This document shows, in pieces, positions 4,221 to 7,890 of a stretch of DNA of 14,327 bases. This stretch comes from Candidatus Latescibacterota bacterium (GTDB lineage: Bacteria; Latescibacterota; UBA2968): contig JAYODI010000113.1 of assembly GCA_038279365.1 (NCBI GenBank), positions 1-14,327 of the forward strand, in the 5' to 3' direction. Numbering within the stretch: the first letter of the stretch is position 1; each line of letters begins with the position of its first letter. The position numbers and the translations under genes were made by a program. Below the pieces are notes generated by a model. The model saw only the letters and a program-made list of their open reading frames with translations. It did not search any database and was not told the DNA's origin.

Positions 4221-5453
4221 ATGGCATTTGCCTTTAATACCAATTCGCAACCCCAAGACAAGTTCAAATTTGTGGTTGGTTTGCGATTTGAACTGTTTTA
4301 CGCACTCCAAACACTCACATATCACAGCACACCAACTTGTGACGATGGCAAACGCATTGGTATGCATTTGGGTTGGAAACAAAAAACGCTTCAAAAATTG
4401 CCACAGGCCTTTCATGACAATTTTAAAACCTTGGGTGGTTCACCGCATTTTTGGCCAGCAATTGCTGATGCATTGGAGTACTGCCCCATTGAAGCTTCTT
4501 TTGAAGACATCATCACCTATCTCAAAAATCTCGATCCATCCGATTTTCGAGAATCTATTTTGGTGGGCACCTTGCACGAGCAAGACATTGTTAACGATTT
4601 GATCTCGGGTGCCAAAACCTTAGCAGATGTTTCTGAAAACGCACCCGAGCAAGAACAAAAGTGGCTTGAATTTTTAGGATTAAGACCCTATCAGGCAGAT
4701 GCCGACATTGTCAAAGCTATGAACAGTCTTATCCATACGCCCGAGGCATTCAAAAACACACTCGTAGAAACGCTTCGCCTCATTTGGGATATTGAACTGG
4801 AATCTATTTGGTTGTCTGAATATCCACAACTGGTCAAATCGATAGAAGAAAAGAAACGGCTCTTTGAAACCTATACATTGCCAGAGTTTTTAGAACGTGC
4901 CTTAGACAATGACAAAACTGTTGCCATGAAAATTGATGAGGAAAATCAAACCCTTGTCTGTTGCAAAGGCCAGTTCCGAATTCCTTTTCATAAGCTGGGC
5001 AGTTTCTCGCTCATGCCGTCTATTTTTAACAGCATGAGATTCTGGACATTTTACGAATATGGTGATTATACCAACATCTTTCTCCCCTACTTTGTCTATG
5101 ACTTAACCCTTGATGGTGATGAAGAAACATCACCTGAAAACGTTGTGTCGATCTCATCCAACGGCAAACGGGTGCCCGAAATGAATCCGTCACTCATATT
5201 TAAAGCCTTAGGTGACAACACCCGATATGCCATTATTGCACACATTGCTCAAACACCGTGTACTGCAGCAGAACTTTCAAAAATATTAAAAGTATCCAAA
5301 CCCACGATTTCACATCACGTTCAATTATTGCGCGAGGCTGGGTTGTTACTTGAAGAACCTGCAGCACGATCTATTCAATTATCGCTCAAGCGCGAAGTAA
5401 TTGAACATTTGTCTCAAGCAACAGTTGGAAATCTTTTTAGCAGTGTAAATTAG
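4221..5453 (+). CDS. ArsR/SmtB-family transcriptional regulator with C-terminal winged HTH and long N-terminal domain, 410 aa
   Basis: C-terminal FKALGDNTRYAII...TAAELSKILKVSKPTISHHVQLLREAGLL is a typical ArsR HTH. RBS GGAG at 4210-4213. Confidence 0.88.
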   Translation: MAFAFNTNSQPQDKFKFVVGLRFELFYALQTLTYHSTPTCDDGKRIGMHLGWKQKTLQKLPQAFHDNFKTLGGSPHFWPAIADALEYCPIEASFEDIITYLKNLDPSDFRESILVGTLHEQDIVNDLISGAKTLADVSENAPEQEQKWLEFLGLRPYQADADIVKAMNSLIHTPEAFKNTLVETLRLIWDIELESIWLSEYPQLVKSIEEKKRLFETYTLPEFLERALDNDKTVAMKIDEENQTLVCCKGQFRIPFHKLGSFSLMPSIFNSMRFWTFYEYGDYTNIFLPYFVYDLTLDGDEETSPENVVSISSNGKRVPEMNPSLIFKALGDNTRYAIIAHIAQTPCTAAELSKILKVSKPTISHHVQLLREAGLLLEEPAARSIQLSLKREVIEHLSQATVGNLFSSVN

Positions 5454-5522
5454 CTGAAACCTGTTGCTTTTTATACAGTCTAAATTCCGGAAAACTTGTC
5501 GCTGATCAGCGCAAATGCCAAC

Positions 5523-5559
5523 AAAAAAAACCTCTGTGCGCAGGATGCACACGGAGGTT
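5523..5559 (-). terminator. Intrinsic terminator on the minus strand
   Basis: 14-bp stem with one mismatch (AACCTCCGTGTGCA-TCC-TGCGCACAGAGGTT). Plus-strand A8 at 5523-5530 gives a U tract on the minus strand only. Confidence 0.75.
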
Positions 5560-5695
5560 GATAAACCCATAGGAGGGTTTGGCTTTGCGTAATAAAAAAA
5601 TAAAATAGAGTGCCCGAACCGACTTGCAAAAGGCCTGGTAAGCAACAAGCAAGCTGGTTTCCCCGGCGCAGGGACCGTATTTAAACGGGGGCACT
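5523..5695 (-). ncRNA. Candidate small non-coding RNA of about 173 nt with a 5' four-way-junction domain; family not recognised
   Basis: Has its own promoter, and the predicted +1 falls on the first base of the closing stem. Four helices, a U-rich linker, a CCUCCU-containing hairpin and a terminator. No convincing ORF. Confidence 0.6.
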
Positions 5696-5701
5696 GCTGT
5701 T

Positions 5702-5729
5702 AATATAACAGACATGCCTCCATTTGCAA
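5702..5729 (-). promoter_or_regulatory. Putative sigma70 promoter with extended -10 driving the candidate sRNA
   Basis: Minus strand: TTGCAA (5729-5724), 16-bp spacer ending in TGT, TATATT (5707-5702). Predicted +1 near A at 5695. Confidence 0.65.
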
Positions 5730-5757
5730 AGGGTTTGTATTCTCTTGGAGGTTTAAA

Positions 5758-6435
5758 ATGTTGAAGCTTATTCAAAACGGCGCATTGTTTATGCTGTTGT
5801 TCTTGGTAGGATGTGGTTCTGGCATTACCCATTCATCGGGGTCACCCGATTTGTCAACGCTGCCTTTTACATTAACGACGGATGTGGGTGAAAATCTTGT
5901 GCATTATTTTTCACCACAGGCAACCAAACCGCCTGTTAACCGGCAGTTGCCAAACCGCATTTATCGTTTTGATTTTGTCGAGCATGAACGAACACTTTCA
6001 TCGGATGGCAATGGTGTTATTAGCGGGGCATTTTTATTTAGCATCAACAATCAGCCCGCGCAACGCGGTTTGATTGAGCTGACCTATACATCCGATGGTT
6101 CCATATGGCGCAAAACCAATAACGTTCGCATTGTGCAAACAGATATAGAAGCCATTACACTGATTGCCAATGTGCACGACAGTGAAAGTGGCTTGCCCCT
6201 ACAAAACGTGGCTGTTGAAGCACGACGCCCTGATGGAGTGCGCACATCCAGAATCGTTCGCACAGATGAATTTGGTGTGGCAACCTTAGAAGTTTTGGCT
6301 GGTGATTTTGAAATTGTGGTTGATCACCCCAATTTTCAACCCATTTCGCTGACCACCATCCGTGCAGATATGGCACAAGTAAAAATAGAAGACATTAAAC
6401 TTGCACCCATTAACAAACTGATTCGCACACCTTAA
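5758..6435 (+). CDS. Putative lipoprotein with C-terminal carboxypeptidase-regulatory-like (beta-sandwich) domain, 225 aa
   Basis: RBS GGAGGT (5747-5752); signal peptide with lipobox LVGC (Cys19). C-terminal VHDSESGLPLQNVAV...TDEFG...GDFEIVVDHPNF fits the CarboxypepD_reg-like pattern. Confidence 0.75.
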   Translation: MLKLIQNGALFMLLFLVGCGSGITHSSGSPDLSTLPFTLTTDVGENLVHYFSPQATKPPVNRQLPNRIYRFDFVEHERTLSSDGNGVISGAFLFSINNQPAQRGLIELTYTSDGSIWRKTNNVRIVQTDIEAITLIANVHDSESGLPLQNVAVEARRPDGVRTSRIVRTDEFGVATLEVLAGDFEIVVDHPNFQPISLTTIRADMAQVKIEDIKLAPINKLIRTP

Positions 6436-6618: not shown

Positions 6619-7890
6619 TTATGCACGAAAATATGAGCTGGGATTGCCGTGTGGTGGAATGCGGCTAAAGGCATCGTCATTGGCAAGCGTCATGGCAATG
6701 CCCAAAGGTGCGGCATCGGTATCGTCACAGCGCATATTAAATGTGGTGCCTCCCCACCGTGTGCCAACCACCAACACATCAAAACGCGTAAACCGTTCTT
6801 GAATGCGATCAAATGCAAGGTGACCTAAAATGTGGGGTTCAAAACCACGCTCTTCCACCAAGCAACACATCTGCCCGCGTCGATACACCGAACGCGAAGG
6901 CGGTTGAATACACCACGATCCACTTTCTTGAAGCTTACCCCCACCGTGTAGCGTCATATAAACATGATCCATATCCACATCGGTTACCAACAATTCCAGT
7001 GCCACATCTTGTGGCACATCTTTGGGCCAAGGGGGTGTTTCGCCACGCACAATGTCTAACATGTGATAACGAACCAGACGCCGATGAATGGCCTCGGGCA
7101 GTGAAAAACGATCGCCCTTTTGAACGCCCTCAGGTACAATAGATAACATCTCTTCACGTGTTAACCATACAAAGTCTTGATTGTGTGCCAAGCGTTGATA
7201 ATCGCCATCGGGGCGTGTATCAATTTTGCGGGGCAAATCGGTACAGCCCAAGTGCAACACCAGCCCATCTTCGGGATAATGCCAAACATATTTGGTATCG
7301 CGGGAAAAGTCGCCAATTTGAGACACATCTTTTTGCGTGGTGCGGTTGTCCCAATTGCTCAGTGCTTGATGGAGCATTGCAAGCAACTCATCGGGATCGG
7401 CTGTGTGACGCGAGCCCAACAACTCTCCCTCAATGGTTGCTACAAATTGCCCTTGATGACATTCACCGTGATCGGTTTGCGCCATTTTTGCAAGGGCTTC
7501 ATCAAATGAAAGCTTGAACCGGCCTTGTAATGCAATGAGGCGAAAACAGCGGCCTTCTTCGTCATCTTGTCGTTGTAAACTGTTAATATCAATCGCAGCT
7601 GTTACAAACCGTTCGTTTAACAGTTGGATAATGCGTGGGTCAGAGTATGTGCGCTCACGGCGCACAACACCATTGTTTCAGACACAGCCAACGGGGTGGC
7701 CATTCATTGCCCATAAAAAAAGCGGTTTGTTTTCTTGGGCAGATCGTTGACGGGCAGGCCAAAACTCGGTTTCCCACTGAATTTCTGTCCAACGCTCTGT
7801 TTGGGGTTTGGGCAAACATTGGGCAAATACTGCATCAAACGTATCTAATGTTACCTCTGGTGGTGGGTTTTGTATGATATCGTTGTACAT
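6619..7890 (-). CDS. Predicted selenoprotein, thioredoxin-like/SelN-like, 423 aa with Sec at codon 71 (TGA 7680-7678); joins ORF-track entries 7678..7929 and 6619..7665
   Basis: The two ORFs are in the same frame, separated only by TGA plus AAC AAT GGT GTT. Joined reading: ENKPLFLWAMNGHPVGCV-U-NNGVVRRERTYSDPRIIQLLNERFV. RBS AAGGAG precedes ATG 7890; SECIS-like hairpin lies directly downstream of the TGA. Confidence 0.85.
7644..7671 (-). promoter_or_regulatory. Bacterial SECIS-like hairpin
   Basis: mRNA GGUG-U(bulge)-UGUGCGC-CGUGA-GCGCACA-UACU: perfect 7-bp upper stem and a 5-nt loop with GU at loop positions 2-3. There are 18 nt between the UGA and the loop. Confidence 0.75.

What the first reader, a model, noticed from the sequence alone, without database searches (positions are those of the whole stretch)
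5609..5695. Unrecognised four-way-junction RNA starting exactly at a predicted transcription start
Seen on the minus strand: P1 AGUGCCC/GGGCACU (7 bp) encloses P2 CCGU/ACGG, P3 UCCCUG/CGGGGA and P4 AACC-A-GCUUGC/GCAAGU-C-GGUU, with only one unpaired base at the junction. G-U pairs in P3 and P4 would be A-C mismatches on the + strand, which supports the minus strand. A TTGCAA / TGnTATATT promoter places +1 at about the first base of P1. It lacks tRNA T-loop and CCA features, the SRP core, and the riboswitch cores I can recall. Inference: a stand-alone structured ncRNA, possibly a new motif.
Basis: partly seen in the sequence, partly recalled or inferred. Interest (0 to 1): 0.75.

Follow-up and report, generated by a model that had tools for sequence, protein, structure and literature searches.

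The report
Conserved cloverleaf-shaped small RNA gene
This looks like a real, previously undescribed small RNA gene with its own promoter, a four-armed folded 5' domain and its own terminator, kept in two genera of an uncultured bacterial lineage, but its function and expressed strand are still unproven.

Summary
On the minus strand, 5695->5609 folds into exactly the four helices described (-37.7 kcal/mol, z -3.4). A TTGCAA-16-TGtTATATT promoter puts +1 at the first base of P1, and an intrinsic terminator lies 5557-5523. The predicted RNA is about 172 nt: four-way junction, 28-nt A/U-rich linker, small hairpin, terminator.

There is no Rfam family and no tRNA. The element is single-copy.

Homologues occur in the same genus (G001, G002, one metagenome contig). 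A second genus, G003 (70% G+C), has one at the same place, between an ArsR/DUF5937-type regulator gene and a lipoprotein gene. Across these five, 99.3% of 134 pair cells pair and 9 of 27 pairs carry compensatory changes. G003 has its own promoter and terminator on the same strand.

The RNA is 88-93% identical where third codon positions of the flanking genes are 51-63%. It stays intact in G002, where the lipoprotein gene is broken.

Metatranscriptome contigs cover the region but carry no strand information.

Verdict: a new lineage-restricted structured sRNA family of unknown function. Only two independent lineages support it, so interest is moderate.

The parts
5702..5729 (-). Sigma-70-type promoter of the small RNA: -35 TTGCAA (5729-5724), 16-nt spacer, extended -10 TGtTATATT (5710-5702). 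Predicted +1 is at 5695.
   Evidence: 9 of 12 matches, TG present. Invariant in G000, G001 and G002. 92-95% identical against 51-63% at third codon positions nearby. G003 has TTGATG-16-TATATT at the matching place.
5609..5695 (-). 87-nt four-way junction. P1 5695-5689/5615-5609; P2 5688-5685/5678-5675; P3 5674-5669/5665-5660; P4 5659-5649/5628-5618. The conserved P4 loop motif GCUUnCCAGG lies at 5643-5634.
   Evidence: fold. (99.3% of 134 cells paired; 9 of 27 pairs compensatory). (alignment showing the conserved loop motif).
5581..5608 (-). Predicted single-stranded A/U-rich linker of 28 nt. It begins with CUCUAU, a motif also found right after P1 in G003.
   Evidence: unpaired in both full-length folds. 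(G003 sequence).
5563..5580 (-). Small hairpin AAACCC-UCCUAU-GGGUUU. It is present in the window's genus only, not in G003.
   Evidence: Absent from the G003 fold.
5523..5557 (-). Intrinsic terminator: G+C-rich hairpin (5557-5531) followed by T8 (5530-5523). It has a U tract on the minus strand only.
   Evidence: G003 has a 12-bp hairpin plus T6 at the equivalent place on the same strand.
5698..5706 (+). Possible opposing extended -10 (TGtTAATAT) on the + strand. It shares the nearly symmetric -10 region with the RNA's promoter. Predicted + strand start is about 5713, 18 bp from 5695 and 45 nt before the lipoprotein ATG.
   Evidence: Read directly from the sequence. The geometry is compared with passages of PMC10268837. 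Inference only; the promoter scan did not list it.
5758..6435 (+). Divergent neighbour: 225-aa predicted lipoprotein (LVGC lipobox) with a weak CarboxypepD_reg-like domain.
   Evidence: Orthologue beside the RNA in G003 (32% identity). Found with this query in 4 of 31 family genomes, the same four that hold the RNA.
4221..5453 (+). Convergent neighbour: 410-aa regulator with a C-terminal ArsR-type HTH. The G003 orthologue also matches DUF5937.
   Evidence: (37% identity to G003). Found in 5 of 53 genomes of the order.

Best explanation
An independent small-RNA gene lies on the minus strand, from about 5695 to about 5524 (~172 nt). A sigma-70-type promoter starts transcription at the first base of a compact cloverleaf-like four-way junction. 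A 28-nt unpaired A/U-rich linker, a small hairpin and an intrinsic terminator follow.

The gene belongs to a conserved three-part module. It points towards the 3' end of an ArsR/DUF5937-type regulator gene. It is transcribed away from a lipoprotein gene, with which it probably shares a nearly symmetric -10 region, so RNA polymerase would bind in one orientation or the other.

Most likely mode of action (inferred): a stable regulatory RNA. The junction would protect the 5' end and display the conserved P4 loop (GCUUnCCAGG), while the linker stays free to bind a partner, either a protein or mRNAs. It would not depend on Hfq.

Shown: the fold, its conservation with compensatory changes, promoter and terminator motifs on the same strand in two lineages, slow evolution, single copy, and no known family.

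Inferred: the expressed strand, the RNA ends, the shared promoter and the partner.
For: - The whole transcript gives z -5.48, 0 of 200 shuffles.
- Conservation: a covariance model from the three same-genus copies finds a full-length match in G003, a different genus with a 70% G+C locus (32.5 bits). It lies between orthologues of the same two genes (37% and 32% protein identity).
- Covariation: on the five firm copies, 99.3% of 134 cells pair and 9 of 27 pairs changed on both sides. 0 of 500 shuffles reach this, and slid controls pair at 25-48%.
- Within the genus, changes fall in loops or turn G-C into G-U.
- Strand: 9 G-U against 1 A-C cells in the five copies.
- In G003, the only promoter-like site (0.1 expected) and the only terminator-like site in 700 bp both lie on the RNA's strand and bracket it. 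The same holds in the window.
- Selection: the junction is 88.5-93% and the promoter 92-95% identical to G002/G001. Third codon positions of the flanking genes are 51-63% identical.
- Independence from the lipoprotein gene: in G002 that gene is split by an internal loss and a frame change, but the RNA is intact.
- Loop indels of 1-2 nt between species argue against a coding frame.
- Single copy in the genome.
- Both full-length folds share the plan of junction, unpaired linker, terminator.
Against: - No strand-resolved expression data exist. All RNA-library runs are unstranded contigs. Three of the four laid (X8, X15, X17) bridge the predicted gap between the divergent starts, 5695-5713. So some transcript, or carried-over DNA, crosses the promoter. 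That fits a + strand leader or read-through as well.
- In G003 the + strand folds more stably (-45.1 vs -41.4 kcal/mol).
- All nine compensatory pairs come from one lineage contrast (G003 against the window's genus). The alignment was fitted to the model.
- The only further candidate, G007 (23.1 bits), lies in another gene context. It folds worse than its shuffles (z +1.76). It has 5 A-C cells against 1 G-U, which favours the opposite strand.
- Not found in 26 of 31 family genomes, nor in the rest of the order and class searched.
- No partner or target was identified. No Hfq was found in 0 of 4 genomes.
Confidence: 0.65

Rival explanations
1. The functional strand is the + strand. The four-way junction would sit in a long 5' leader of the lipoprotein mRNA, or in a regulator-lipoprotein read-through transcript, and control that gene in cis.
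For: - The junction lies 63-149 nt upstream of the lipoprotein ATG on the same strand.
- The + strand also folds into a four-way junction, and in G003 more stably than the minus strand.
- RNA-library contigs join the junction to the lipoprotein coding region (X8 5364-5888, X15 5594-6194, X17 5682-5854).
- A weak + strand promoter-like site, TTGGCT-16-TAAAAT, lies at 5579-5606.
- RNA and lipoprotein gene are found in the same four genomes.
Against: - The + promoter-like site would start transcription inside P1 and cut its 5' arm.
- Its -10 is changed at the key second position in G001.
- G-U against A-C cells are 9 to 1 in favour of the minus strand.
- Promoter and U-tract terminators are on the minus strand in both lineages, with none on the + strand.
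- In G002 the lipoprotein gene is broken while the RNA is kept at about 90% identity.
- Contigs carry no strand and may include DNA.
Confidence: 0.12
2. A sensor RNA on the minus strand. The junction would bind a ligand or protein and decide whether transcription stops at the terminator or reads on. The read-through RNA would then be antisense to the ArsR-type regulator gene.
For: - A structured 5' domain followed by a linker and an intrinsic terminator is the layout of a transcriptional riboswitch.
- No minus-strand gene lies downstream, only the antisense of the regulator gene.
- This convergent arrangement is kept in G003, where the terminator overlaps the last ~45 nt of the regulator's coding region.
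- X8's contig reaches down to 5364, past the terminator (no strand).
Against: - The junction has almost no unpaired conserved nucleotides to build a pocket. Conservation sits in helices P1-P2 and the P4 loop.
- I saw no convincing conserved anti-terminator pairing in both lineages on inspection.
- No known aptamer matches.
- In G005 the regulator gene exists without the RNA next to it.
Confidence: 0.1
3. By-product of a symmetric promoter. The minus-strand RNA would be divergent transcription without a function of its own, and the fold would be incidental.
For: - The -10 region 5698-5710 is nearly symmetric.
- It predicts starts 18 bp apart, the commonest geometry of bacterial bidirectional promoters. 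Many of these give non-coding divergent RNAs (passages of PMC10268837; sequence).
Against: - A by-product would not keep an 87-nt junction through nine compensatory pair changes.
- It would not keep a dedicated terminator in both lineages.
- It would not stay at 88-93% identity where synonymous sites are at 51-63%.
Confidence: 0.05

Closest known systems
Stand-alone bacterial regulatory small RNAs (own promoter, structured body, unpaired A/U-rich stretch, intrinsic terminator)
   Same: An independent transcription unit of about 145-172 nt in an intergenic region. It has a sigma-70-type promoter, a single-stranded A/U-rich linker ahead of a terminator hairpin with a U tail, and is restricted to one lineage.
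   Different: The body is a compact four-way junction starting at +1, not a series of hairpins. No Hfq gene was found in 0 of 4 genomes holding the RNA. No target or seed pairing conserved in both lineages was found.
tRNA and tRNA-like cloverleaf RNAs
   Same: Four-helix cloverleaf topology: a 7-bp closing stem, a 4-bp second stem and almost no junction nucleotides.
   Different: The third arm has a 3-nt loop. The fourth arm is 10 bp with a 20-nt loop. I saw no T-loop or D-loop motifs and no CCA. ARAGORN finds nothing and no tRNA-clan Rfam hit appears even at E<=10.
Riboswitch-controlled antisense or small RNAs (the B12 riboswitch ahead of the antisense RNA to pocR in Listeria; recalled, not looked up here)
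   Same: A structured 5' domain plus terminator, aimed in antisense at the 3' end of a transcription-regulator gene. The arrangement is conserved in two genera.
   Different: There is no known aptamer and no evident ligand pocket or anti-terminator. Ligand dependence is untested.
Bidirectional (symmetric -10) bacterial promoters
   Same: Overlapping -10 hexamers on opposite strands with -11A and -7T reciprocally paired. Predicted starts are 18 bp apart, with an mRNA on one side and a non-coding RNA on the other (passages of PMC10268837).
   Different: The starts are only predicted here. The + strand hexamer is weaker in G003 (AAATAT, read). The non-coding side is a conserved structured RNA, not a spurious transcript.
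6S RNA
   Same: Similar size. The Rfam 6S model finds nothing elsewhere in G000 or G003 (0 of 2), so that slot is formally open.
   Different: The predicted fold is a four-way junction plus a terminator, not a long rod with a central bubble. No 6S hit appears at the locus even at E<=10. The 6S model rang in only 5 of 14 control genomes, so its silence means little.

Membership tests
tRNA / tmRNA | Cloverleaf with D- and T-loop motifs and a 7-nt anticodon loop, detectable by ARAGORN or the Rfam tRNA models | tested here: not met
   ARAGORN finds 0 genes in the window. No tRNA or tmRNA family appears at E<=10 over 5450-5800.
Bacterial small SRP RNA (RF00169) | Match to the SRP covariance model (domain IV core) | tested here: not met
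   No hit at the locus. The genomes' SRP RNAs lie elsewhere: G000 contig C17 at 72.6 bits and G003 at 70.1 bits.
6S RNA (RF00013) | Rod-like fold with a central bubble; match to the 6S model | tested here: not met
   No hit at the locus. The predicted fold is a four-way junction plus terminator.
Any Rfam 15 family, including riboswitches and ribozymes with four-way junctions | Score at or above the family's gathering threshold | tested here: not met
   0 matches in the window and 0 in the five homologous loci. The best sub-threshold hits are RAGATH-21 at 16.5 bits (threshold 70.3) and PyrR at 16.4 bits (threshold 54). Both lie over the terminator region, not the junction.
Hfq-dependent sRNA | The organism encodes Hfq | tested here: not met
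   PF17209 was found in 0 of 4 genomes (G000-G003). The control rang in 5 of 14 named genomes. G000 is 98.5% complete and G003 100%.
CsrA/RsmA-sequestering RNA (CsrB/RsmZ type) | Many GGA motifs displayed in hairpin loops | tested here: not met
   CsrA is encoded in 4 of 4 genomes. On inspection of the 170-nt sequence I noticed only one GGA, at the P3/P4 boundary and not in a loop. This count was made by eye, not by a tool.
Transcriptional riboswitch | Conserved aptamer followed by a terminator, with a regulated gene downstream on the same strand | tested here: inconclusive
   A structured domain and a terminator are present. No gene lies downstream on the minus strand, only the antisense of the regulator gene. 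Ligand binding cannot be tested with these tools.
Bidirectional promoter (symmetric -10) | Divergent transcription starts 7-25 bp apart, typically 18 bp, with reciprocally overlapping -10 elements | tested here: inconclusive
   The sequence geometry fits: -11A/-7T are paired at 5702/5706, and predicted starts are 5695 and 5713 (criteria from passages of PMC10268837). The starts were not measured, because the contigs carry no ends or strand.

The most novel reading that the evidence does not exclude
The four-way junction would be a new sensing domain. By binding a metabolite, metal or protein, it would decide whether the RNA ends at its terminator or reads on as an antisense RNA into the ArsR/DUF5937-type regulator gene. 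A shared symmetric promoter would meanwhile trade its own transcription off against the lipoprotein gene. That would make a three-way RNA-based switch in an uncultured phylum.
Probability: 0.1. Interest if true: 0.75.

Novelty: new variant of a known kind. Interest (0 to 1): 0.45.

Why it matters
Almost nothing is known about RNA regulators in this lineage, which is known only from metagenomes. The one named relative found is a MAG titled Candidatus Latescibacterota (locus L057). Full-text searches for 'latescibacter' with 'noncoding RNA' gave 0 papers. With 'sRNA' they gave 1 paper, unrelated by its title.

A compact four-way junction at the very 5' end of a small RNA is unusual. It is kept across a shift in G+C from about 50% to 70%. 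That suggests a defined three-dimensional shape recognised by a partner, not a simple base-pairing RNA.

The tight module of regulator gene, RNA and lipoprotein gene, with an apparently symmetric promoter, gives a concrete small system to test in a surrogate host.

Two limits apply. The known distribution is narrow: two firm genera. No function can yet be assigned.

Tried and rejected
- **Rfam** at gathering score and at E<=10 gave nothing usable. The weak RAGATH-21 and PyrR hits cover the terminator region and are far below threshold.
- **tRNA/tmRNA:** none.
- **Repeat or mobile element:** rejected; the element is single-copy in the genome.
- **Coding explanation:** minus-strand ORFs 5506..5832 and 5379..5648 have no Pfam match. 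Loop indels of 1-2 nt between species would break a frame.
- **Weak model hits rejected as chance.**
  - Inside long ORFs: L026/G044, L028/G004, L116, L117 and L118.
  - L115 lies in a 105-codon open frame.
- **G007 (L027)** is kept only as doubtful. It shares the motif spacing and a TATAAT just upstream. But it folds worse than its shuffles, has A-C where G-U would be expected, lacks a scan-level promoter or terminator, and sits between a YceI gene and a response-regulator gene.
- **Pattern scan of named genomes:** 77 stretches. Only 2 (L057, L059) are confirmed by the model at the pattern's site. Three other weak model hits lie elsewhere in their loci.
- **Metagenome scan** with a tighter pattern: 3 stretches, 1 confirmed, nearly identical to the window. 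That pattern was fitted to three sequences and will miss divergent relatives.
- **Class-wide model search:** no further credible member. Only 33 of several hundred first-look candidates per genome were scored, so sensitivity was limited.
- **RNA-library contigs.**
  - Depth is one figure per contig and cannot rank the RNA against its neighbours.
  - X15 has no contig over 5370-5593, and X17 and X18 cover only 5682-5877. Such holes prove nothing.
  - Strand and ends cannot be read from contigs.
- **Pairing between the RNA and the 5' regions of the two neighbouring genes (RNAduplex).**
  - A strong score was seen only for G000 against the lipoprotein leader. It is driven by the self-complementary TTGCAA region.
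  - It is not reproduced in G003 (32 of 200 shuffles as good).
  - Nothing was found for the regulator gene.
  - Rejected as a conserved target.

Full report
**1. The observation**

RNAfold returns them as both minimum-energy and centroid structure:
- P1, 7 bp.
- P2, 4 bp with a 6-nt loop.
- P3, 6 bp with a 3-nt loop.
- P4, 4 bp, an A/C mismatch, then 6 bp.
- One unpaired C between P4 and P1.

The energy is -37.7 kcal/mol, z -3.37, and 1 of 200 shuffles folds as well. The + strand folds less well (-34.6 kcal/mol, z -2.25, 6 of 200).

The promoter scan lists TTGCAA-16-TATATT with an upstream TG on the minus strand (5729..5702). This puts 5695 seven bases after the -10 hexamer. It also lists a minus-strand terminator-like hairpin at 5552..5536 followed by a T run. 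ARAGORN finds no tRNA. Rfam finds nothing at gathering score. At E<=10 it finds only 14-17-bit noise.

**2. Setting**

The element lies in a 304-nt spacer between two + strand genes:
- 4221..5453: a 410-aa protein with a C-terminal ArsR-type HTH.
- 5758..6435: a 225-aa predicted lipoprotein with a weak CarboxypepD_reg-like domain.

The RNA gene is therefore convergent with the regulator gene and divergent from the lipoprotein gene. It is single-copy in the 6.0-Mb assembly.

The whole predicted transcript (5695-5526) folds as:
- the four-way junction;
- a 28-nt unpaired A/U-rich linker;
- a small hairpin;
- the terminator.

The energy is -63.7 kcal/mol, z -5.48, 0 of 200 shuffles.

**3. Relatives**

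BLAST-level search of 41 related genomes found full-length copies only in the two genomes of the same genus (G002 91%, G001 89%). In their alignment the stretch from the -35 hexamer to the terminator is nearly invariant. The bases next to the lipoprotein start diverge. Differences inside the junction fall in loops or turn G-C into G-U, or G-U into A-U.

A covariance model of these three (R1) found a full-length match in G003, another genus of the family (32.5 bits). There the locus is 70% G+C. It lies between orthologues of the same two genes (37% and 32% identity).

G003 folds into the same four-way junction. After P1 comes the same UCUAU motif, then an unpaired linker and a 12-bp terminator with a T run. 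In 700 bp of that G+C-rich locus, the only promoter-like site is TTGATG-16-TATATT (0.1 expected by shuffling). That site and the only terminator-like site are both on the RNA's strand and bracket it.

A refined model (R2) was run over:
- the family: 7 of 31 genomes with any hit at E<=1;
- the order: 7 of 53;
- the class: 10 of 132.

Apart from G000-G003, the hits are weak. They lie inside long open reading frames, so I reject them. The exception is G007.

G007 (23.1 bits) shares the motifs CCCCG...CGGUCC and GCUUnCCAGG at exactly the same 28-nt spacing, and has a TATAAT just upstream. Against it:
- it sits between a YceI gene and a response-regulator gene;
- it folds worse than its shuffles (z +1.76);
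- it has 5 A-C cells and 1 G-U.

I keep it as doubtful.

A motif-pattern scan of 185,579 species' genomes gave 77 stretches. The model confirms only G003's and G007's records. The G003-equivalent record (L057) is titled a Candidatus Latescibacterota MAG. The metagenome scan gave one more copy, nearly identical to the window.

**4. Is the structure selected?**

On the five firm copies, 99.3% of 134 pair cells form standard pairs. Nine of 27 pairs changed on both sides: 1 in P1, 2 in P3 and 6 in P4. None of 500 column shuffles reaches these values. Sliding the partners by 1-3 columns drops pairing to 25-48%. With G007 added the figures are 95.6% and 12 of 27.

Caveats:
- All nine compensatory pairs come from the single contrast between G003 and the window's genus.
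- The alignment was fitted to the model.

An independent measure of selection compares the region with its neighbours. Against G002 and G001 the junction is 88.5% and 93% identical, and the promoter 92% and 95%. Third codon positions of the two flanking genes are 51-63% identical.

**5. Which strand?**

For the minus strand:
- Promoter and U-tract terminator lie on that strand in both lineages, with none on the other.
- There are 9 G-U against 1 A-C cells in the five copies.
- The window's copy folds better on that strand.

Against:
- G003's + strand is more stable (-45.1 vs -41.4 kcal/mol).
- G007 shows the reverse G-U/A-C bias.

Expression data do not decide. Twenty public runs hold the stretch or part of it, six of them RNA libraries. 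The four RNA runs laid give contigs at 5364-5888 (X8), 5594-6194 (X15), 5682-5854 (X17) and 5710-5877 (X18). Contigs carry no strand, no ends and no usable local depth, and may include DNA.

Three of them bridge 5695-5713. So some molecule crosses the promoter region. This leaves room for a + strand leader or a read-through transcript that would be antisense to the small RNA.

**6. Independence from the lipoprotein gene**

With the lipoprotein as query, matches occur in G000, G001, G002 and G003 only (4 of 31). These are the genomes that hold the RNA.

In G002 the gene matches in two pieces (residues 1-36 and 171-225) in different frames. It has lost its middle and is broken. The RNA and its promoter remain about 90% identical.

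In G005 the regulator gene (76% identity over the part on the contig) is followed directly by a convergent gene. By the likeness of their C-terminal residues, this looks like the counterpart of the window's 348-aa ORF 6619..7665. Neither the RNA nor the lipoprotein gene lies between them.

RNA and lipoprotein gene thus behave as a cassette, yet the RNA outlives the gene. This argues against a pure cis-leader role.

**7. How it probably works**

The -10 region (5698-5710) is nearly symmetric. The minus-strand hexamer TATATT (5707-5702) and a + strand hexamer TAATAT (5701-5706) each have a TG two bases upstream. Their -11A and -7T are paired with each other. The predicted starts are 5695 and 5713, 18 bp apart.

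That is the commonest geometry of bacterial bidirectional promoters, according to passages of PMC10268837, which cites Warman et al. 2021. The abstract of PMC12825309 adds that one RNA polymerase binding event prevents the other (search listing). G003 keeps the key A and T on the + side but in a weaker hexamer (read).

I therefore infer that the small RNA and the lipoprotein mRNA start back to back from one shared site.

The RNA itself has the build of a stable regulator: a 5' end buried in a compact junction, a conserved exposed loop (GCUUnCCAGG) on the longest arm, an unpaired A/U-rich linker, and a terminator. Hfq is not encoded (0 of 4 genomes). CsrA is encoded (4 of 4), but by eye the RNA has only one GGA. 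I found no target pairing conserved in both lineages.

My best reading is a structured regulatory RNA that binds a protein or RNA partner through the P4 loop and/or the linker (confidence 0.65 for the stand-alone minus-strand RNA gene as such). Read-through past the terminator would produce antisense RNA to the regulator gene. In G003 the terminator already overlaps that gene's last ~45 nt. This keeps a sensor or attenuator reading alive (about 0.1).

**8. Comparison with known families**

It is not a tRNA or tmRNA. It is not the SRP RNA, which is found elsewhere in both genomes. It is not a 6S RNA by model or shape, nor any Rfam 15 family.

It works most like a stand-alone bacterial sRNA, but with an unusual cloverleaf-shaped body. 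The layout resembles riboswitch-gated antisense RNAs (recalled example: the B12 element ahead of the pocR antisense RNA in Listeria), without evidence for a ligand.

Full-text searches for the lineage name with 'noncoding RNA' (0 papers) and 'sRNA' (1 paper, unrelated by title) found no prior description. Subscription-journal papers are outside that library.

**9. Verdict**

This is a real, conserved, probably novel small-RNA family with a four-way-junction body. It is restricted, as far as these searches reach, to two genera of one family (one more doubtful). Novelty: a new variant of a known kind. Interest 0.45. It is well supported as a gene, but its function is unknown, its distribution is narrow and its expressed strand is unproven.

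Noticed in passing
L003 1217-1527 (G002), minus strand: In G002 the lipoprotein gene next to the RNA is broken. The start (signal peptide and lipobox) and the last ~50 residues survive in different frames, and the middle ~135 residues are missing. This could be a real pseudogene or a MAG assembly fault.
   Followed up: partly
L033 1-900 (G005): G005 has the ArsR-type regulator gene (76% identity) followed directly by a convergent gene whose product ends like the window's 348-aa ORF 6619..7665. The RNA-plus-lipoprotein cassette is missing as a unit.
   Followed up: partly
window 5500-5511: A perfect 12-bp palindrome, CGCTGATCAGCG, lies just beyond the RNA's terminator and 47 nt after the regulator gene's stop. 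It is invariant in G000, G001 and G002. It may be a protein-binding site.
   Followed up: no
window 5510-5519 with 5580-5589: A 9-10-bp complementarity (CGCAAAGCC with GGCAUUUGCG on the minus strand) encloses the small hairpin and the terminator. It can form only in transcripts that read past the T run, or on the + strand. It underlies the weak RAGATH-21 hit (16.5 bits).
   Followed up: no
window 5698-5710: A nearly symmetric extended -10 region (TGTTA-ATA-TAACA) could serve both strands, with predicted starts 18 bp apart.
   Followed up: partly
G000-G003, whole genomes: No Hfq gene was found (0 of 4). CsrA was found in all four. The Rfam 6S model found nothing in G000 and G003, but it rang in only 5 of 14 control genomes.
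   Followed up: partly
window 6619-7665, minus strand: A 348-aa ORF has no Pfam match. It appears to be conserved next to this module in G002, and next to the regulator gene in G005.
   Followed up: no
window 5440-5800 in public runs: Runs labelled estuary, marsh and marine metagenomes hold all sampled words of the stretch. Seven are flagged as possible sources of the assembly. Six RNA libraries hold part of it.
   Followed up: partly
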